Of a stretch of DNA of 11,174 nucleotides, positions 1 to 11,174 are shown in pieces (the first letter of the stretch is position 1; each line of letters opens with the position of its first letter). The stretch is from Candidatus Vampirococcus lugosii. Lineage in GTDB: Bacteria; Patescibacteriota; Gracilibacteria; Absconditabacterales; Absconditicoccaceae. The notes under the pieces were generated by a model. That model did not search any database. It saw only the letters and a program-made list of their open reading frames with translations, and was not told where the DNA came from. The stretch covers positions 1 to 11,174 of the forward strand of contig NZ_JAEDAM010000032.1 in the NCBI RefSeq assembly GCF_018420025.1, read 5' to 3'. A program made the translations under genes and the position numbers.

Positions 1-951
1 AGCTTTTATTTCAAAATTATATTCTCAAGCTTTAACATTTTCTAAATCAAAATTTTCATCTCAATTTATACTTAAACTATAATCTACATTTGGACTTACA
101 TTAAATACTACTTCATATCTTTCCTCTTCCAAATCAACATTTATTGTTTTTCATTCATCTTTTACCTCAAATTCTTCTGTCAAACTATTATATCCTGTCA
201 AACTTGCTTTATATTTATAACTTCCATTTACTAATTTATATATATTTCATGTTCAATTTATTTCATTTCATTCATTATCTTCTATTTCCAATTTTAAATC
301 TTCTGGATTTAAGTTAAATACTACTTCATATCTTTTCTCTTCCAAATCAACATTTATTGTTTTTCATTCATCTTTTACCTCAAAACTTCAAGTATAAGTT
401 TGATATCAATCAGCTTTTATTTCAAAATTATATTCTCAAGCTTTAACATTTTCTAAATCAAAATTTTCATCTCAATTTATACTTAAACTATAATCTACAT
501 TTGGACTTACATTAAATACTACTTCATATCTTTTCTCTTCCAAATCAACATTTATTGTTTTTCATTCATCTTTTACCTCAAAACTTCAAGTATAAGTTTG
601 ATATCAATCAGCTTTTATTTCAAAATTATATTCTCAAGCTTTAACATTTTCTAAATCAAAATTTTCATCTCAATTTATACTTAAACTATAATCTACATTT
701 GGACTTACATTAAATACTACTTCATATCTTTTCTCTTCCAAATCAACATTTATTGTTTTTCATTCATCTTTCACCTCAAATTCTTCTGTCAAACTATTAT
801 ATCCTGTCAAACTTGCTTTATATTTATAACTTCCATTTACTAATTTATATATATTTCATGTTCAATTTATTTCATTTCATTCATTATCTTCTATTTCCAA
901 TTTTAAATCTTCTGGATTTAAGTTAAATACTACTTCATATCTTTTCTCTTC
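1..951 (-). repeat. Near-identical in-frame coding tandem repeats (198-bp and 213-bp units, 609-bp super-period) encoding PEGA-like / carboxypeptidase-regulatory-like beta-sandwich domains of the protease
   Basis: Units on the minus strand are B1 739-951 (213 bp, 71 aa), A1 541-738 and A2 343-540 (198 bp, 66 aa each), B2 130-342 (213 bp) and A3 1-129 (cut by the window edge). Bases 1-342 are almost identical to 610-951. Unit A is EEKRYEVVFNVSPNVDYSLSINGDENFDLENVKAGEYNFEIKADGYQTYTGSFEVKDEGKTINVDL. Unit B is EEKRYEVVFNLNPEDLKLEIEDNEGNEINGTGNIYKLVNGSYKYKASLTGYNSLTEEFEVKDEGKTINVDL. The domain-family assignment rests on pattern resemblance only. Confidence 0.9.
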
Positions 952-2331
952 TACCTTGTCTGTCATACTTAATAAAGTTGCTTCCAAATCTGGAACAACA
1001 CCCCGTATAGTTTTAGTATCAAGAGAATCTAATTCTTGTCAATTATTTTTTATTAAATCAAAAATTTCACTATAAGTTTTTTCTGTTGCAAAAGACCAAA
1101 TTAAAGATACAACTCAAGCAATATGAGGAGATGCCATAGAAGTTCATGACATATTTCAATATTTATTTCAAGGCTTTGATGAATAAATTGAACTACCTGG
1201 TGCTCATATATGAACTGTTTTATCTCAAAAATTTGAAAAGCTAGATAATCATTTATCTTTTTTTAAAGATGCTACTGAAATAACATTGTCAAGTCATTCT
1301 ATACTATTTTCTCAACATTGAAAGTCTGATCAGAAACCTGCTGGAGTAAAAAAAGTTTGATCATTATCAGAAGAATTATTTCATGCAGATGCTATAAAGA
1401 CACCTCAATTATCTCAAAAATCTTTTATAGTATTATAAAATAGTTCATCAAAATAACAATTTGATTGATATCATAAACTTGCATTCAATACTTTTGCTCA
1501 ATTTTCTTTCGCAAAATTTATTCATCTAATTATACCACTTGTAGGACATGTTCAATTATCATTACAAACTTTCAAAGACATAATTTGTGCATATGGATTT
1601 ACTCAAACTATTCATCAATTTGATCAAAAACTATTTAAACTTCAAGCTATAGTTCAAGAAACATGTGTTCAGTGTCAATGTACATCATTTTGATCTTTTT
1701 GATTTGAAGCAAAATCATAACCATAAATACAATCTCACATATATTCTCAATTTCGATCAACACAATCATCTCAATTCCACATTTGTCATTCAAATTCTGG
1801 ATGATTATAATCAATTCATGTATCCAAAACACCTACCAATATTTTATTTGGATCTTGCATTTCCGAATTATATATATCAATTCATTTTGGCCATTTAATA
1901 AAATCCATTCACCAAAGTTTATCATAATCTGGAATATCTTTTGTTATATCATCAATTTCATAAATAAAATTTGGTTGAACATGTTTTACTCAAGGTTCTT
2001 TACTTAATTCTTTCATAAGTTCTTCTGTTGATTTAGCTTTAGACTTATTTTTTTGAGAATTAGTTCAAAACTTATTTCAAGTATCACTTTTTAATTTTAC
2101 TATATTTTTACTAGTATGTCAAATATTTTCAGTTTTATATCATTTTGATTTCATTCACTTTACAAAACTTTCAATATTTTGGGGTCAAATATTTCAAATT
2201 CTATCATCTTCATATAAAATAATAACTTCTCATTCTACATAAGGTTTATCAAAATTCGCAAATAATCTATTGACAAATCACATATAAATAATTAAAATTA
2301 TTGTTAATATTGAGAATATTGTTTTTTTCAT
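1..2331 (-). CDS. Subtilisin-family (peptidase S8) secreted serine protease, pre-pro form, with a C-terminal PEGA-like repeat array. The C-terminus runs off the left window edge (3'-partial).
   Basis: The minus-strand frame is set by ATG 2331-2329. With TGA=Gly it stays open for all 777 codons down to base 1 (hand translation: no TAA/TAG, about 63 in-frame TGA). Three subtilase catalytic motifs are present. VGVLDTGID has its Asp codon at 1822-1824, and the Gly of DTG is TGA at 1816-1818. HGHGTHVSGTIAG has its His at 1672-1674, with TGA glycines at 1675-1677, 1669-1671 and 1654-1656. GTSMASPHIAGV has its Ser at 1138-1140, preceded by a TGA Gly at 1144-1146. The N-terminus MKKTIFSILTIILIIYMGF is a signal/anchor helix. 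The segment ending ...EPGVKHVQPNFIYEI looks like an inhibitor-I9 type propeptide. Confidence 0.92.
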
Positions 2332-2366
2332 AGCATTTTTGTATAAAAAATAAAAATTATATTTTT

Positions 2367-2394
2367 TATATATCAAAAATACTCAAAAAGTCAA
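2367..2394 (-). promoter_or_regulatory. Candidate sigma-70-like promoter for the protease gene
   Basis: Minus strand reads TTGACT (2394-2389), 16-nt spacer, TATATA (2372-2367), about 35 nt upstream of ATG 2331. AT-rich DNA produces many such matches, so this is weak. Confidence 0.3.
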
Positions 2395-2439
2395 GTTAAA
2401 TTGATTATTTATATAATTTTTTTAAAAATAAAATAATAT

Positions 2440-2961
2440 CTAAAATTCTAAATCTTTCAAAATTCATAAAGTATTATTAATATTTCTATAAGTTTCTTTT
2501 TCTCACTTTTCCAAAATATGAAAACTGGTATAATTCCAGTCATTTATATTATCTACTATTCAATGTTTAATAGCATTAAAATTAACATAAACAAAACATT
2601 TCTGTAAATAAACATCATCTTGTATAGCTTTTACTTTGAATCTTCAATCAAATACAGGTCATTTTCAAGTTCAATATTTTGCTTTAAAATATTGTGCATA
2701 AGATTGTTGAATTTTTCTCATAAAGTTTGAAATATAATTTTCAGTTTCAGATTTTGAAATTAATATAAAATGAAAATGATTTGGCAAAAAACAATATGAA
2801 ACCAAATCTATTTTTGAAAAATCTCATTTTGAATATTTTAAAATTATTTTGTAAAATCTATCATAATCAGAATGTTCATAAAAAATTCTCTGTTGTTCAA
2901 ATCAACGATTAAAAATATGATAATATATATAAGGATATAATTTAAAATATCTAATTGGCAT
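2440..2961 (-). CDS. HUH-type Y1 tyrosine transposase of the IS200-like / REP-associated (RayT, COG1943-like) family
   Basis: ATG 2961-2959 to TAG 2442-2440, 173 aa, with 9 in-frame TGA read as Gly. Motifs seen: YHIFNRG near the N-terminus, the HUH motif in LPNHFHFIL, GPVFDGRFK, and the catalytic-Tyr region CFVYVNFNAIKHGIVDNINDWNYTSF. Order and spacing are typical of RayT-type transposases. Confidence 0.82.
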
Positions 2962-2982
2962 CTTACTTTTTTTAAATATAAA

Positions 2983-3054
2983 TTCTCGCCCGGGCGGATA
3001 TATTATATTAATTTTAAATTAAATTTCAAGCAAAATTTCCCGCCCGGGCGAGAA
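2983..3054. repeat. Pair of inverted GC-rich REP-like palindromes flanking a 42-nt AT-rich spacer, immediately upstream of the RayT-like gene
   Basis: TTCTCGCCCGGGCGG (2983-2997) is the exact reverse complement of CCGCCCGGGCGAGAA (3040-3054). Each arm also contains the self-complementary core CGCCCGGGCG. These are by far the most GC-rich 15-mers in an otherwise AT-rich window, and they start 22 nt upstream of ATG 2961. Confidence 0.7.
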
Positions 3055-3064
3055 AACAACAATT

Positions 3065-3094
3065 AAAAAAAACTCCGACCAAGGTCAGAGTTTT
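3065..3094 (-). terminator. Rho-independent terminator of the SLH surface-protein gene
   Basis: Minus strand reads AAAACTCTGACC-TT-GGTCGGAGTTTT followed by TTTT. That is a 10-12 bp stem with one G-U pair and then a T-run, located about 36 nt after the TAA at 3131-3133. Confidence 0.7.
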
Positions 3095-3130
3095 AAAACT
3101 AAATTAATAAGTTTTTTGTTAAAAAAGTAA

Positions 3131-6841
<3,711 letters not shown>

Positions 6842-6915
6842 GTGTTTGTATTAGATAAGTATATAAATAAAACTGTTTTCTCCATTATATAATTTAAATT
6901 ATGGAGCACAGCGGT

Positions 6916-6943
6916 AGTTTACAAATTTTTTATAAAAATTCAA
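6916..6943 (-). promoter_or_regulatory. One of several candidate sigma-70-like promoters for the surface-protein gene within the 376-nt AT-rich intergenic region 6842-7217
   Basis: Minus strand reads TTGAAT (6943-6938), 16-nt spacer, TAAACT (6921-6916). Alternatives exist, for example TTGCAC-N17-TAAATG about 60 nt further upstream. Sequence alone cannot distinguish them. Confidence 0.2.
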
Positions 6944-7217
6944 GAGAATTTTAATAAAAATATATAATTAAAGTAAATAACAACATTTAAGCACTATTGT
7001 AAACTTGTGCAAACTGTATTACGATATATGTTTTTATTTGTGACAAAAAAAATTATAAATTAGTAATAATAGTTAGTATTAATCATAATATACAGAGCAA
7101 AACTATTATAATTCATATTAAATTATATTTTTTATTATTCATAAATATATATTAAATATTAAATATATACTATATTATATAATATAATATTTTTTTTGCA
7201 AATTAATCATAAATAAT

Positions 7218-8645
7218 TTAAGTTATTATTCTGAAATATCTCAAAACAAATAATAAACTAATAAATAATAATATCAATTTTATTTTTAATATATAATTTT
7301 GTATTATCATATAAAATCAATTCATATAAAATAAATTAGAAATACAATAAAACCAATCAACAATTATATTTTGTAAATAAATCAAATAACTAAAATCAAA
7401 AAATATAAGAGATAAAGAAATTATCATTAATAATGGCAAAAATGGAACAACTAAAATATTTGCAAATATTGTAAAAAGATTTATTTGATCAGTAAAAAAA
7501 AGTAAAAATGGAAAAACTCATAAACTAGCTCATATAGTGGGATATACATATTCTCAAATTCTTTTATGAACAAAAGATTTTTGTTTAGGTAAAAAATATT
7601 GAAAAACAATAATTCAAATTAAAGCAGAAAAACTTAAAGCAAAACCCATATCATATAATATACTATAAGGATTAAACAATAAAACAATTACAAAAGCTGT
7701 TTTTATTAAATTCCATATATACACTTCCCTACCTGCCAATATAGCAAATAAAGTAATGGATCACATAATCCAAGCACGAAAAATATTTGCTGAAAGTCAA
7801 ACCATAAAAGAATAAAAACTTACACAAAAAATAATAATTATTATTCTAATATACAAAGGTAGCCAAAAAAATAAAATATTTAAGAAAAATACTAAAAAAG
7901 CTATATGAGTTCCACTAGTTGCAATCATATGAACTAATCATGTTTCCAAAAATGTTTGATATTCAAAATTAGGAATTAATGATCTATCCCCTATCAACAC
8001 TCATATAGATAAACCAGAATATTTATTATTTCATAAATTTTCTTGTAATGAAGATTTTACAAAATTTTTGGACCAAAATAAATAATCAAGATTATTATTA
8101 TCCAAATAAATAAAATTATCTTCATAAATTGTTCAATAATATTTTTTCAAAAATAGCCAATATTTGTAATCAAATTCATATTCAAAATCTTTTGTAGACA
8201 AATTTATATAAAAATCTTCAAAAAAATTATCAAAATCATTTAATATTTTACTTTGAGTCAATCACGGAGAATATGATGAATAAGTTTTTATTGTATCTCA
8301 TATATTATGTTCATAATCTGAATAATAAATATATTTTCTATTATGATAATCTTTAAAAATAAATCTTTGAGAATCAATTCTATCTACAATCTGCCCTGTT
8401 CATACAAAAGATTTATCAAAATCAGGAATTTTTTGGAAATAAAAATAATGATTAATAAAAATAGATAAAAATGGAAATAAAATTACCAATAATATATTTG
8501 AGAAAAATAAAAATAATTTTTCTTTGTAAAAAATTTGTAAAATAGAAATTATAAATAATTCAATCAAGGATATTATTGAAAAAAGAAATAAATCTTCTAT
8601 CAATACTAACAATAAAATATTTATACTAAAAAATAAAATATACAT
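7218..8645 (-). CDS. comEC: ComEC/Rec2-family DNA internalisation channel, short form (OB-fold plus Competence domain only, no metallo-beta-lactamase domain)
   Basis: ATG 8645-8643 to TAA 7220-7218, 475 aa, hand-translated with TGA=Gly and no other stops. The N-terminus has hydrophobic helices (MYILFFSINILLLVLIEDLFLFSIISLIELFIISIL...). An OB-fold-like soluble segment follows: GTGQIVDRIDSQRFIFKDY...IGDTIKTYSSYSP. The hallmark Competence-domain motif is GLSIGVLIGDRSLIPNFEYQTFLETGLVHMIATSGTHIAFLVFFL. Several further hydrophobic segments then run to the C-terminus. Confidence 0.87.
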
Positions 8646-8668
8646 AACTAAATTTTTGTAAAATAAAT

Positions 8669-9550
8669 TTAATTATCAATTAATTTTGATATTTTATCTT
8701 GATATGAAATACTTTGATATGGAATAGATAGATATTTTAATATCAATAAAAAATGCAGTCTAGCCCCTACCCCACTTTTTGCTGTAGAAAAAAAATCAAT
8801 TATTTCTTTTATAGATTTATCACTTCGATCATAAATTTCAATATTTTTGTATTGAGATCTTAATATTTGATATACACTTATATCTTCACTAATATCTCAT
8901 GGCACAAAATAAATTTTTTCATTATTTTGAATTTGACAAGCTTTAAATAATTTTTGTCGATCATATTTTGATTTAATATACGGATTTCAATTTATCAAAA
9001 TATTATTTGAAATAGATTTTTTTTCAATTTTGAATTTATCCAAAACATCAATAGCAAAATCATGATATTGAATAGTATTTTTATTATAAGATTTAGCAAT
9101 ATTGAAAGAATCTTTTTCTCTTACTACTATATTTTTAGCTTTAGGAAGTAAAAAATTATATAAATATTTAGTTCTTTTTTTATTTATTTTTCATATTCAT
9201 CAAAATAAAACAAAATCTTCAAAAAATATTTTATTAAAAAATTTTATAGGATATAAATAACCATCATAAGGGAAAGATCTCTGATCAGTAAGTACTTCCC
9301 CACCTCATCGAAAATGTATAGTATTTTTTGTAAAAAAAGGATATTTTTGAGAAAAAGTAATTTTATTAATATCAATATCTAATAAATCTTTATTTTTATC
9401 TAACCAAGAACTTAACCAATCTGGATTTGGACTTATTATTTTCAATAAATTTAAATCATAATTATTAAAAATGTAATTTATTAATCATATCATAAGTATC
9501 TCATCTCACAGGTTCTTGTATCAAAAATAACCTTTCAATATTCATTGCAT
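8669..9550 (-). CDS. csaB: Polysaccharide pyruvyl transferase, CsaB-like
   Basis: ATG 9550-9548 to TAA 8671-8669, 293 aa. An in-frame TAA at 9578-9580 bounds the frame upstream. The motif series is in CsaB order: MQGILKGYFGYKNLGDEILM (N-terminal GYYGxxNxGDE type), HFRGGGEVLTD, LFGGIG, NIVVREKDSF, DFAIDV, IYFVPGDISED, and C-terminal GVGARLHFLLILKYLSIPYQSISYQDKI (MRLHaLI...P..isYdpK type). Confidence 0.78.
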
Positions 9551-11174
9551 TTTTTTTAAATAAATTTTTAAAATTTTTTATCTCAGAATTAAACAGTGAA
9601 AAAATATATTTATTAGTATTTTTAAATACATTAAAATAATAATTTGGAATATATTTATTATAATATGAAGGCAAATCTGATATATTGCCATTATTTATCA
9701 TTTCAATATGAGATATATTATAAGGTTTAACTTTTATTCAATCAATTTCAAGTAAATCTTTTCATTCTTTTAAATTATCAATTTGATTTTGATAAATATC
9801 ATTAACACTTGAAATTCAAGATTCTTCAAATACCATATACCAATCTGACTTAAGTTTTTTATTTACTATATTTGAATAATTTTTATGCAAATTCATTTTA
9901 TTTTTATACAATTCTCTATCATCAACACATTTAGATCGTGAATTTCTCGCCCGTTCATATTTGTTTTTATTTTGTAAAATTATATTATCCATTTTTTCAA
10001 TATTTTTGATGGAAGTATTTATTATTTTTGGCAATTCATACTCCCCTAACAAAAATTCATCTTGATAATCAAAAAGTCTATATTCTCATTCATAATTATT
10101 ATCAAAATATAAGCTTTGATATCAATTTGAATTAGTAGACACTACCCTGTCCATTATCTGTCAATCTTGTCATATTAATTCTAATTTTTGAGAATTTAAA
10201 CTAATATAAATAGAATCCAAAGTATAAACATTTAAATCTCTAGGAAAAGCAAATTCAGTATCTGAAATTACAATATATTCTCAAGATCAAACATTTATTT
10301 CAAACTCTCTAGAACTAGATCATCGTCATAATCAATTTACTTTCAAATTTCAAGAATACACTCATCATATAGATTGAATTTTTATATATGATGCTAACAA
10401 ATCATTAACAGGATTTATTTCAACTATTTTCAAATTTCATTGATTATTTTTCTCTTCTTTATTTTCTTCATCTTTATTTTCAATTATTTCACTGTCCAAA
10501 CTGTCTATATTTTGTCAATCTTTATTTTGACAATTTGTAGGGGAGTCTAGACTTATATTTTTGTCATCAATAATATTTTGTAATATACTTTGTCAAATTC
10601 ATTTTATTTCAAGTAATTCTTCATATTTACAATATGGTTTATTTTTTATTATTTCTCTTGCTATATTTTCTCATATTCTATTTATTGTTTTTAACTCTTC
10701 TATACTTGCCGTATTTATTTCAATTTTTTTGTTTATTTCATTTTGTTCAATTTTTTTATTTTCTTCATCTTTATTTTGTCAAGTTTCTTTATTTTCTTCA
10801 TCTTTATTTTCAATTATTTCATTGTCCAAACTGTCTATATTTTGTCAATCTTTATTTTGACAATTTGTAGGGGAGTCTAGACTTATATTTTTGTCATCAA
10901 TAATATTTTGTAATATACTTTGTCAAATTCATTTTATTTCAAGTAATTCTTCATATTTACAATATGGTTTATTTTTTATTATTTCTCTTGCTATATTTTC
11001 TCATATTCTATTTATTGTTTTTAACTCTTCTATACTTGCTGTATTTATTTCAAATTTTTTGTTTATTTCATTTTGTTCAATTTCTTTATTCTCTTCATCT
11101 TTATTTTCAATTATTTCATTGTCCAAACTGTCTATATTTTGTCAATCTTTATTTTGACAATTTGTAGGGGAGTC
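9465..11174 (-). CDS. Multi-domain DNA-binding surface protein: tandem ComEA-type helix-hairpin-helix domains, a lamin-tail domain (LTD) and an unassigned Asn/Lys-rich C-terminal region. The N-terminus runs off the right window edge (5'-partial).
   Basis: The frame is open from base 11174 (a codon boundary) to TAA 9467-9465 with TGA=Gly. ORF-track fragments 9501..9701 and 9816..10052 lie in this frame. The ComEA-like HhH pair INTASIEELKTINRIGENIAREIIKNKPYCKYEELLEIKGIGQSILQNII occurs twice, at about 10899-11048 and 10569-10718. The LTD-like segment (about 10140-10436) reads NLKIVEINPVNDLLASYIKIQSIGGVYSGNLKVNGLG...EFEINVGSGEYIVISD...ISLNSQKLELIGQDGQIMDRVV. The remaining roughly 225 aa (9468-10139) match nothing I recognise. 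Confidence 0.85.
10455..11174 (-). repeat. Near-identical in-frame tandem repeat (330-bp and 297-bp units), each encoding one ComEA-like HhH domain plus an acidic Asn/Lys/Glu linker
   Basis: Unit 1 is 10531-10860 (330 bp) and unit 2 is 10861-11157 (297 bp). A partial copy lies at 10455-10530, and the start of another at 11158-11174. The units differ by a handful of substitutions and one 33-bp (11-codon) indel, which is itself an internal sub-repeat (KNEEDKNQGTE / KNEEDKNEIIE, 10751-10816). CAATTTGTAGGGGAGTC recurs at 10531, 10861 and 11158. Confidence 0.9.

What the first reader, a model, noticed from the sequence alone, without database searches (positions are those of the whole stretch)
10455..11174. 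Array of almost identical ComEA-type DNA-binding domains with a 33-bp length polymorphism, running off the contig
Seen: at least two complete HhH-domain units (330 and 297 bp) and two partial ones are tandemly repeated in frame. They differ by only a few substitutions (one synonymous ACG/ACA, I/F, K/E) and an 11-codon indel in the acidic linker. Established: canonical ComEA carries a single HhH pair. Inference: a multivalent string of DNA-binding domains separated by acidic spacers would raise avidity for long DNA. The near-identity implies recent expansion or ongoing gene conversion. The true copy number is unknown because the window ends inside the array.
Basis: partly seen in the sequence, partly recalled or inferred. 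Interest (0 to 1): 0.65.

Follow-up and report, generated by a model that had tools for sequence, protein, structure and literature searches.

The report
Near-identical ComEA-type HhH domain array
The repeat is real: it encodes near-identical copies of a ComEA-type DNA-binding domain in a large surface protein next to the DNA-import channel gene of a tiny predatory-type (Absconditabacteria) bacterium that reads TGA as glycine; relatives carry 4-9 diverged copies, so only the recent copy homogenisation is unusual.

Summary
On the minus strand, read with genetic code 25 (TGA=Gly), 10413-11174 holds two complete units (297 and 330 bp). They differ by 3 substitutions and one 33-bp indel. A third linker copy follows. 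Each unit encodes a ComEA-type (HhH)2 domain (Pfam HHH_3, E=3.7e-23) plus an acidic linker.

The window is a whole contig, and both of its ends lie in exact repeats. An independent Logan assembly breaks exactly at the array edge. The repeat is therefore in the reads, but its copy number is unresolved.

The gene is the 3' part of a ~1,150-1,300-aa protein: signal peptide, multiple HhH domains, a lamin-tail-like domain and a helical C-terminus. It is conserved in five relatives, including the closed genome of Ca. Absconditicoccus praedator. Gene order is the same where the flanks are assembled: HhH protein, pyruvyl transferase, ComEC, SLH giant protein.

Orthologues carry 4, 6, 8 and 9 HhH units that are only 25-71% identical to each other. 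The 98-99% identity here reflects recent, lineage-specific duplication or gene conversion, which also overwrote the ancestral last unit.

Tandem ComEA-type HhH arrays are common in databases: 149 of the top 150 hits. The likely role is a multivalent extracellular DNA receptor feeding ComEC. This is inferred, and the acidic charge of the units is a caveat.

Verdict: a new variant of a known kind, of moderate interest.

The parts
9465..11174 (-). 3' part (569 codons plus TAA stop at 9465-9467) of the multi-HhH / lamin-tail-like surface protein gene. The N-terminal part, about 600-750 codons judging from orthologues, lies beyond the contig end.
   Evidence: Open only under code 25 or code 4. It is in the protein database as P0001, 569 aa, on a contig of 11,174 bp. 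Orthologues are 1167-1317 aa.
10878..11174 (-). Repeat unit u1 (297 bp): acidic linker DSPTNC...EINKK plus HhH domain 1 (domain = 10875-11054). It ends at the contig end.
   Evidence: HHH_3 stretch. HMM domain at residues 41-100.
10548..10877 (-). Repeat unit u2 (330 bp): acidic linker with the 11-codon insertion plus HhH domain 2 (domain = 10545-10724).
   Evidence: HHH_3 best stretch at residues 149-201.
10752..10784 (-). 33-bp in-frame insertion (TGQNKDEENKK) that distinguishes u2 from u1. It is a slipped copy of a 33-bp linker sub-repeat.
   Evidence: Alignment. TRF period 33 at 10740-10810.
10413..10547 (-). Third copy of the linker. Its first ~91 nt are repeated (10457-10547, 1 substitution, N->S). 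It then continues as a unique junction into the beta domain.
   Evidence: The Logan contig L010 starts at 10484, 31 nt before the first base that distinguishes this copy from the others.
10065..10436 (-). Lamin-tail-domain-like beta-sandwich (residues ~247-370).
   Evidence: AF2 model pLDDT is 60-84 over residues 245-346. The top 13 Foldseek PDB hits are lamin A/C, B1 and B2 tail domains, probability 1.00, TMt up to 0.72. There is no Pfam hit. The domain is conserved in all orthologues and occurs twice in L001 and L006.
9468..10064 (-). Conserved helical C-terminal module of unknown fold, with the motif KYxRAR..S.CV.DRD.Y...L.RNY..V...L.
   Evidence: Invariant columns in the alignment. pLDDT is below 50. 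No Pfam hit.
8669..9550 (-). Polysaccharide pyruvyl transferase gene. Its start overlaps the 3' end of the HhH gene by 86 nt.
   Evidence: PF04230, E=6.7e-15. Overlap read. The same overlap occurs in orthologous loci.
7218..8645 (-). ComEC/Rec2 DNA-import channel gene, 475 aa. It has the Competence domain only and no metallo-beta-lactamase domain.
   Evidence: PF03772, E=2.5e-35. TIGR00360 scores 70.7 bits against a cut-off of 36.5. Synteny is conserved in L001 and L006.

Best explanation
The region is a genuine tandem array of ComEA-type (HhH)2 domains separated by acidic linkers. It lies in the C-terminal half of a large secreted or anchored surface protein: signal peptide, several HhH domains, a lamin-tail-like beta domain and a helical tail. 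The host is an Absconditabacteria (SR1)-type bacterium that decodes TGA as glycine.

The gene heads a conserved envelope and DNA-uptake cluster: HhH protein, pyruvyl transferase, ComEC channel, SLH-domain giant protein, Y1 transposase-like gene, subtilase.

The most likely role (inferred) is an extracellular, multivalent, sequence-independent dsDNA receptor. It would capture and hold long DNA, for example from lysed prey, and hand it to the type IV pilus / ComEC import route. Stringing several HhH modules on one flexible chain would give the multivalency that Gram-positive ComEA gets by oligomerising.

In this lineage the units next to the lamin-tail-like domain were recently homogenised by unequal crossing-over or gene conversion. 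Replication slippage in the linker produced the 33-bp length difference.

The contig ends inside the array because short-read assembly cannot cross 217-bp exact repeats. The true copy number is therefore unknown. The sequence requires at least 2 HhH domains and 3 linker copies; orthologues suggest 3-4 units in this cluster and 4-9 in the whole protein.
For: Shown:
- Code 25 and the minus-strand reading frame.
- Two HHH_3 domains, E=3.7e-23. Match to 2DUY by sequence (E=1.6e-9) and by fold (TMt 0.75, rmsd 1.6 A).
- Lamin-tail fold of the following domain.
- Five orthologues share the HhH + LTD-like + C-terminal architecture, and the complete ones have N-terminal signal or anchor segments.
- The gene order matches that in the closed genome CP054059 of Ca. 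Absconditicoccus praedator and in L006. Neighbour identities are 45-68% (organism name from PMC12451612).
- HhH counts are 4, 6, 8 and 9 in the orthologues.
- Unit identity within orthologue proteins is 25-71%, against 98% here. The window's units carry the middle-type signature (PYC.Y ... SPxxC), not the last-position signature (PICSK ... no SPxxC).
- No comparable DNA repeat exists in the orthologues or in other multi-HhH proteins.
- An independent Logan contig (SRR13241708_104) matches window 10484-6188 at 99.95%. It starts exactly one 31-mer before the base that separates linker copy 3 from copies 1 and 2. This is what a k=31 graph gives if the linker really occurs in more than one context in the reads.
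- Both ends of the window are exact repeats, 83 and 122 bp.

From the literature:
- ComEA and ComEC are proposed to import host DNA for nucleotides in the related predator Vampirococcus (PMC8080830).
- ComEA must oligomerise on DNA for uptake (PMC9747964).
- Lamin-tail domains occur in archaeal extracellular-DNA-metabolism proteins (PMC5118699).
- ComEA-type HhH domains confer DNA affinity at high salt (PMC4777378).
Against: - DNA binding is not shown. The window's HhH units have net charge -3 and the linkers -7 to -8. Most units in the orthologues are also acidic, ranging from -15 to +7.
- The same fold family includes PsbU, which does not bind DNA and is the second-best hit type.
- The first hairpin reads NRIG instead of GIG.
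- TIGR00426 and TIGR01259 (ComEA models) match below their curated cut-offs.
- A 217-bp exact repeat inside the contig means the order and number of the 297- and 330-bp variants could have been mis-resolved by the assembler. The 3 SNPs and the indel could be strain variants rather than differences between paralogous copies.
- No reads were available to test depth.
- The cluster also encodes cell-wall functions (pyruvyl transferase, SLH protein), so proximity to comEC is suggestive, not proof of shared function.
Confidence: 0.62

Rival explanations
1. Assembly artefact or collapse. The individual genome has a different arrangement: one HhH unit flanked by two linker copies, or many more units. 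The 297- and 330-bp 'units' would then be strain variants stitched in tandem by the assembler.
For: The window is a whole contig that ends in an 83-bp exact repeat. The array contains a 217-bp exact repeat, longer than usual k-mers. All differences between u1 and u2 cluster within about 90 bp. The other contig end is also in a 98-99% repeat. The Logan assembly could not enter the array at all.
Against: All five orthologues have 3-4 HhH units directly before the last lamin-tail-like domain, so several units are the ancestral state. The Logan break-point shows that the linker has at least two different downstream contexts in the reads. An assembler does not normally create tandem duplicates from single-copy sequence. 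The variants remain in frame.
Confidence: 0.15
2. The array is real, but the HhH modules are not DNA receptors. They would serve as acidic structural or spacer modules, or as cation- or protein-binding modules, of a cell-surface fibre used for prey attachment. This would be analogous to PsbU, an HhH-fold protein that does not bind DNA.
For: The units and linkers carry net negative charge. PsbU models match nearly as well as ComEA models. The neighbours are envelope genes: pyruvyl transferase, an SLH giant protein and a subtilase. Giant surface proteins are typical of these predators (PMC8080830).
Against: The best sequence and fold match is to the ComEA-related protein. The canonical second hairpin K-G-I-G is retained. 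comEC is conserved two genes downstream in three genomes. Acidic proteins are expected in halophiles, and the closest named relative lives in hypersaline soda lakes (my own knowledge of Ca. A. praedator). HhH domains contact the DNA backbone largely through main-chain atoms and bound cations (established knowledge).
Confidence: 0.18
3. A contingency (phase- or length-variable) locus. The near-identical units and the 33-bp linker repeat would be maintained by selection so that recombination or slippage rapidly varies the length or antigenicity of an exposed protein, for example to evade phage or prey defences.
For: There is an in-frame 33-bp slippage polymorphism. Two other surface proteins on the same contig have 98-99% identical or simple in-frame repeats. 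HhH copy number differs among relatives: 4, 6, 8 and 9.
Against: No population data are available. Only one pair of units is seen. The orthologues lack such identity, so the state is not conserved and may simply reflect one recent event.
Confidence: 0.05

Closest known systems
ComEA / ComE DNA receptor of natural transformation (B. subtilis ComEA, V. cholerae ComEA, Thermus ComEA-related 2DUY; Pfam HHH_3 PF12836, TIGR00426)
   Same: Same (HhH)2 DNA-binding fold: Pfam E=3.7e-23, 2DUY TMt 0.75. Extracytoplasmic location is implied by the signal or anchor segment in orthologues. The gene is linked to comEC. Multivalency on DNA is functionally required in ComEA, where it is achieved by oligomerisation (PMC9747964).
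   Different: Several HhH domains sit on one chain instead of one. There is no SLBB or oligomerisation domain. The protein has a lamin-tail-like domain and a ~200-aa helical tail, and is ~1,150-1,300 aa rather than ~100-200 aa. The units are acidic, and each has two conserved Cys (PxC ... SPxxC). It scores below the curated ComEA cut-offs: TIGR01259 36 bits against 152, TIGR00426 45 against 53.
WP_231180169.1 'helix-hairpin-helix domain-containing protein' of Ca. Absconditicoccus praedator M39-6 (CP054059), and unnamed orthologues in MAGs CAYMVT01, CAZACQ01 and ERZ27266011
   Same: Orthologous: 36-42% identity over HhH + LTD-like + C-terminal module. Gene neighbourhood is the same in CP054059 and CAZACQ01 and partly in CAYMVT01 (pyruvyl transferase with overlap). 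All use code 25, and the pyruvyl transferase gene overlaps the 3' end in each of those three.
   Different: Their HhH units are diverged (25-71% aa identity, no near-identical DNA repeat) and the last unit has its own conserved signature. In the window the units are 98-99% identical and the last-type unit has been replaced.
Other tandem HHH_3 proteins in metagenomes (e.g. P0006 with 7 units, P0007 with 5, P0008 with 4, P0022 with 9, the last named 'DNA uptake protein and related DNA-binding proteins')
   Same: N-terminal hydrophobic segment, repeated EIN(S/T)A...GIG...PFC...GIG...PxxC units, and acidic Glu/Lys-rich linkers.
   Different: They have no lamin-tail-like or helical C-terminal module, are not next to comEC in the two loci examined, use the standard genetic code, and their DNA-level unit identity is about 71%.
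Methanopyrus kandleri topoisomerase V C-terminal (HhH)2 array (from my own knowledge, not tested here)
   Same: Many tandem (HhH)2 domains on one chain that raise DNA affinity and salt tolerance.
   Different: It is a cytoplasmic enzyme with a catalytic domain from an unrelated lineage. Homology beyond the HhH fold was not tested.

Membership tests
ComEA-type (HhH)2 domain (Pfam HHH_3 PF12836) | Sequence match above the Pfam gathering score | tested here: met
   81.8 bits against a cut-off of 27, E=3.7e-23, two stretches.
ComEA-type (HhH)2 domain (Pfam HHH_3 PF12836) | Fold of two helix-hairpin-helix motifs superposable on a solved ComEA domain | tested here: met
   Foldseek hit to 2DUY with TMt 0.75 and rmsd 1.6 A over 54 columns. 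The model pLDDT for the units is 70-82.
ComEA protein family (TIGR01259 comE / TIGR00426 HhH region) | Score above the NCBIfam curated cut-off | tested here: not met
   TIGR00426 scores 45.3 bits against 53.1. TIGR01259 scores 36.2 bits against 152.35.
ComEA protein family | Architecture of a membrane anchor or signal peptide plus a single C-terminal HhH domain, with or without an SLBB/oligomerisation domain | tested here: not met
   At least 2 HhH domains are followed by a ~320-aa non-HhH region. Orthologues are 1167-1317 aa with 4-9 HhH domains. No SLBB hit was found.
ComEA protein family | Extracytoplasmic location (N-terminal signal peptide or anchor) | not testable with these tools
   The N-terminus lies off the contig. 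The orthologues begin with hydrophobic signal-like segments, and two conserved Cys per unit suggest disulfides. Both points are inference.
ComEA protein family | Genomic or functional association with comEC | tested here: met
   A ComEC gene (PF03772, E=2.5e-35) lies two genes downstream. This arrangement is conserved in L001, L006 and L010.
ComEA protein family | Non-specific dsDNA binding and requirement for DNA uptake | not testable with these tools
   This needs biochemistry or genetics. The acidic net charge of the units is a caveat.
Lamin tail domain (LTD, PF00932) | Sequence match to the Pfam model | tested here: not met
   No Pfam hit at E<=10 for the C-terminal 330 aa, and none in the full-length orthologues. 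A profile search against PDB found only chance-level hits.
Lamin tail domain (LTD, PF00932) | Ig-like beta-sandwich fold of lamin tails | tested here: met
   Foldseek ranks 1-13 are all lamin A/C, B1 or B2 tail domains, with E 1e-4 to 1.5e-3, probability 1.00 and TMt 0.46-0.72. The model is of moderate confidence, pLDDT 60-84.
Genetic code 25 lineage (Gracilibacteria / Absconditabacteria) | TGA used as a sense codon at conserved glycine positions | tested here: met
   There are 165 in-frame TGA codons (4.6%) against 70 GGN codons. TGA occurs at the HGTH, GTSMA and GIG motifs. The closest syntenic genome is Ca. Absconditicoccus praedator.
Concerted evolution / recent tandem duplication | Paralogous units more similar within a genome than to their positional orthologues | tested here: met
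   The window's units are 98% identical to each other but at most 53% identical to any orthologue unit. The last-position group (L001_u4, L002_u8, L004_u9, L005_u1) excludes the window's last unit.

The most novel reading that the evidence does not exclude
Absconditabacteria-type predators have replaced the small oligomerising ComEA with a >1,100-aa covalent 'DNA-harvesting' fibre. It would consist of a string of disulfide-stabilised, salt-tolerant HhH modules on acidic spacers, ending in a lamin-tail-like domain and a helical module that docks at the envelope or the ComEC complex. In this reading the number of HhH modules is tuned rapidly by recombination (4 to 9 or more copies among relatives, near-identical copies here). 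Array length would then be an evolvable trait that sets reach and avidity for prey DNA.
Probability: 0.3. Interest if true: 0.65.

Novelty: new variant of a known kind. Interest (0 to 1): 0.45.

Why it matters
CPR/Patescibacteria bacteria lack nucleotide biosynthesis and are thought to live on imported host DNA. ComEC is near-universal in them, while ComEA is reported only in 'some' genomes (PMC13293708).

This analysis defines a conserved, comEC-linked protein with multiple HhH domains and a lamin-tail-like domain in the code-25 predators. It is a concrete candidate for the missing DNA receptor, and a natural experiment in covalent versus oligomeric multivalency of ComEA.

There is also a practical lesson. 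Such genes are invisible under the standard genetic code. They also break assemblies, so domain counts taken from MAGs are unreliable.

Tried and rejected
1. Table-11 ORFs. Only spurious plus-strand ORFs rich in F, S and L were found. These were rejected in favour of the minus strand.
2. Code 4 (TGA=Trp). Rejected because TGA falls at invariant Gly positions.
3. Word-index homology searches. The whole fragment returned only itself, and the C-terminal module returned nothing. The exhaustive HMMER search was needed.
4. Exact 30-nt linker pattern. No matches in JGI metagenome contigs or in GTDB genomes.
5. Alignment-based locus search. It found nothing in JGI metagenomes. In GTDB genomes it found only two loci, one of them already known.
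6. Exact look-up of P0001 and of code-25 translations of the neighbours.
It was repeated with the database versions, which carry W at TGA positions. The helical C-terminal module stayed at pLDDT below 50, so no fold could be assigned.
8. Sequence-level LTD assignment failed. Only the fold search supports it.
9. I considered a phage or mobile-element origin because of the Y1 transposase-like gene. I rejected it because that gene is syntenic and 68% identical in Ca. A. praedator.
10. Contig-end k-mer arithmetic for the window itself (83 and 122 bp) did not fit a single k value, so I did not interpret it further.
Full report
**1. What is in the sequence**

The window is 24% G+C and has almost no ORFs under the standard bacterial code. 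If TGA is read as a sense codon, the whole minus strand fills with long ORFs.

TGA accounts for 165 codons (4.6%), against 70 for all GGN codons and 17 for TGG. It falls on invariant glycines: HGTH and GTSMA in a subtilase, and GIG in helix-hairpin-helix motifs. The organism therefore uses genetic code 25 (TGA=Gly), as Gracilibacteria and Absconditabacteria do.

On that strand the genes, in order of transcription, are:
- a multi-HhH protein (11174-9465, N-terminus off the contig);
- a polysaccharide pyruvyl transferase;
- a ComEC with the Competence domain only;
- a 1,236-aa SLH-domain protein;
- an IS200-like Y1 transposase homologue;
- an S8 subtilase whose C-terminal repeats run off the other end.

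**2. The observation**

TRF and the repeat finder confirm a 330/297-bp tandem repeat from about 10413 to the contig end.

In coding phase, u1 (10878-11174, 297 bp) and u2 (10548-10877, 330 bp) differ by three substitutions: GAG/GAA, TTT/ATT (F/I) and ACA/ACG. They also differ by one 33-bp indel, which is a slipped copy of a 33-bp sub-repeat of the linker. A third copy of the linker (10413-10547) matches for about 91 nt and then leads into a different domain.

Each unit encodes an acidic linker (DSPTNCQNKDGQNIDSLDNEIIENKDEENKE...) and a ~60-aa domain. The domain matches Pfam HHH_3 (E=3.7e-23, 81.8 bits against a cut-off of 27). It also matches the Thermus ComEA-related protein 2DUY by sequence (E=1.6e-9) and by fold (TMt 0.75, rmsd 1.6 A).

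Each unit contains four TGA-Gly codons, including both glycines of the canonical K-G-I-G hairpin. This is why the array cannot be seen under table 11. Otherwise the description is accurate.

**3. Assembly status**

The protein database holds this fragment (P0001) on a single contig of 11,174 bp, so the window is the whole contig.

The last 83 bp of the contig are an exact repeat of 10795-10877. The first 122 bp are repeated exactly at 412 and 610, inside a 98-99% identical domain repeat of the subtilase. The array contains a 217-bp exact repeat. Both ends are therefore repeat-induced breaks.

An independent Logan assembly of run SRR13241708 (L010, 4,297 bp) matches window 10484-6188 at 99.95%. 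It begins exactly 31 nt before the first base that distinguishes linker copy 3 from copies 1 and 2. It ends inside the 87-bp acidic repeat of the SLH protein. That is the signature of a k=31 graph branching at a sequence that truly has several contexts in the reads.

So the repeat is real. However, neither its copy number nor the order of the 297- and 330-bp variants can be trusted.

**4. What the gene is**

An exhaustive HMMER search of 1.84 billion representatives found 1,114 proteins at E<=0.001. Four of these share both the HhH units and the ~320-aa C-terminal region: P0002, P0003, P0005 and the fragment P0004. A locus search added L006, the full-length version of P0004.

P0003 is WP_231180169.1, named 'helix-hairpin-helix domain-containing protein', from the closed 1.13-Mb genome CP054059. 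That genome is Ca. Absconditicoccus praedator M39-6 (PMC12451612).

Gene order there and in L006 matches the window: HhH protein, pyruvyl transferase (overlapping the HhH gene's 3' end by 62-95 nt in L001, L002 and L006), ComEC, SLH giant protein. In L001 the Y1_Tnp gene and an ~816-aa protein follow, as in the window. Neighbour identities are 45-57% for ComEC, 47-59% for the pyruvyl transferase and 68% for Y1_Tnp. The window therefore comes from a distinct relative within this order.

Retranslated with code 25, the full-length orthologues are 1,167-1,317 aa. They start with a hydrophobic signal or anchor segment and carry 4, 6, 8 and 9 HhH units. Each has 3-4 units directly before the last beta domain.

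The units share a signature with two conserved cysteines: EIN(S/T)A...GIG...P(F/Y/I)C...GIG...SPxxC. This is consistent with an extracytoplasmic disulfide (inference).

The beta domain after the array has no Pfam match. In an AlphaFold model built on the orthologue alignment (pLDDT 60-84 there) it is most similar to lamin tail Ig-like domains, which take Foldseek ranks 1-13 with TMt up to 0.72. The last ~200 residues are conserved and helical but could not be modelled with confidence.

**5. Is a multi-HhH array unusual?**

Characterised ComEA proteins have one (HhH)2 domain. In sequence space, though, arrays are common. 149 of the 150 best representatives have 2-9 units; this list is biased by the two-unit query. 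They include standard-code proteins with 4-7 units and acidic linkers: P0006, P0007 and P0008. One JGI entry is named 'DNA uptake protein and related DNA-binding proteins'. I found no paper that describes such arrays or this family with the lamin-tail-like domain.

**6. Why the copies are nearly identical**

Within the orthologue proteins, units are 25-71% identical. TRF finds no domain-length DNA repeat in L001, L002 or L006, and only a 79% pair in L004. An unrelated 7-unit protein shows 71%.

The unit directly before the lamin-tail-like domain forms a positional orthology group: L001_u4, L002_u8, L004_u9 and L005_u1. Its signature is PICSK...DxxxxC with no SPxxC. Both window units instead carry the middle-type signature (PYCKY...SPTNC) and group with L001_u3 and L002_u6/u7.

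The simplest reading is a recent, lineage-specific unequal crossing-over or gene-conversion event that replaced the ancestral last unit. Slippage in the linker added the indel. L006 shows a milder version at its N-terminus: its first two units align with few differences. Turnover of units therefore seems recurrent in the family.

**7. Mechanism**

Shown:
- the domain identity;
- linkage to comEC;
- conservation of the architecture;
- the repeat structure.

Inferred:
- The protein is exported and displays several sequence-independent dsDNA-binding modules on flexible acidic spacers.
- Multivalency raises avidity and may condense or ratchet DNA toward the pilus/ComEC route. This would parallel B. 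subtilis and Geobacillus ComEA, which must oligomerise on DNA for uptake (PMC9747964; PMC13168374 abstract).
- The likely use is scavenging prey DNA for nucleotides, as proposed for Vampirococcus (PMC8080830).
- Lamin-tail domains have precedents in archaeal extracellular-DNA-metabolism proteins, where they are thought to give membrane association (PMC5118699).
- ComEA-type HhH domains keep DNA affinity at high salt (PMC4777378).

Caveats:
- The units are slightly acidic (net -3) and the linkers strongly so.
- PsbU, a member of the same fold family that does not bind DNA, matches almost as well.
- The curated ComEA models are not reached.
- The neighbours also suggest a general cell-envelope cluster.

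**8. Verdict**

The finding is real and correctly located, and its cautious points are right: recent homogenisation and unknown copy number. It is not a ComEA with extra copies. It is a member of an undescribed but conserved family with multiple HhH domains and a lamin-tail-like domain in code-25 CPR predators. Multi-HhH arrays as such are widespread. I rate it a new variant of a known kind, of moderate interest.

Noticed in passing
window 1-11174 (whole contig): The organism uses genetic code 25 (TGA=Gly). TGA is 4.6% of codons and is the main glycine codon. Under table 11 nearly all genes are invisible. Three database relatives (P0002, P0004, P0005) were translated with code 4 and carry W at Gly positions.
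   Followed up: yes
window 1-909 (minus strand, subtilase C-terminus): The other contig end also lies in a tandem array of ~66-aa CarboxypepD_reg/PEGA-like domains. Two unit types alternate (A-B-B-A-B). Copies are 98-99% identical at the DNA level (1-300 vs 610-909; 304-501 vs 502-699). The first 122 bp of the contig are repeated exactly three times.
   Followed up: partly
window 5967-6241 (minus strand, SLH-domain 1,236-aa protein 3134-6841): An 87-bp in-frame acidic repeat (EEEPEPEPE...[14 protein letters not shown], 3.2 copies) lies after the SLH domains. The independent Logan contig L010 ends inside it at 6188.
   Followed up: partly
window 9465-9550; L001 13410-13504; L002 13893-13954; L006 8613-8698: The 3' end of the HhH gene overlaps the start of the pyruvyl transferase gene by 86 nt. 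A similar long overlap (62-95 nt) is conserved in three other genomes. This suggests translational coupling or a constrained dual-coding stretch.
   Followed up: partly
window 2443-2961 (minus strand); L001 19901-20422 and 9292-9798: An IS200-like Y1 transposase homologue sits at the same syntenic position in Ca. A. praedator (68% identity). A second copy lies just upstream of the HhH gene in L001, L002 and L006. It looks like a resident, conserved gene rather than a recently mobile insertion sequence.
   Followed up: partly
window 7218-8645 (minus strand): ComEC is short (475 aa). It has the Competence transmembrane domain (residues 217-463) but no metallo-beta-lactamase nuclease domain. The N-terminal ~200 aa were not identified. 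The enzyme that degrades the non-imported strand is therefore not evident in this cluster.
   Followed up: partly
L005 1-860: In the 2.7-kb contig that holds P0004, the sequence upstream of the gene fragment gives a G/A/P/R-rich translation unlike the AT-rich gene. It joins the gene inside the last HhH unit. This is probably a chimeric assembly at the repeat. L006 holds the intact 1,209-aa version.
   Followed up: partly
window 10065-10436 and orthologues; P0130: The lamin-tail-like beta domain (motif K/I-x-E-I-x-P ... Y-x-G-x-L-x-I-K-G-L-G-R-G) is missed by Pfam. It occurs twice in L001 and L006, and at least three times in P0130, an unrelated 1,067-aa protein that shows W at Gly positions and has a similar helical C-terminus. 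It may merit its own family model.
   Followed up: partly
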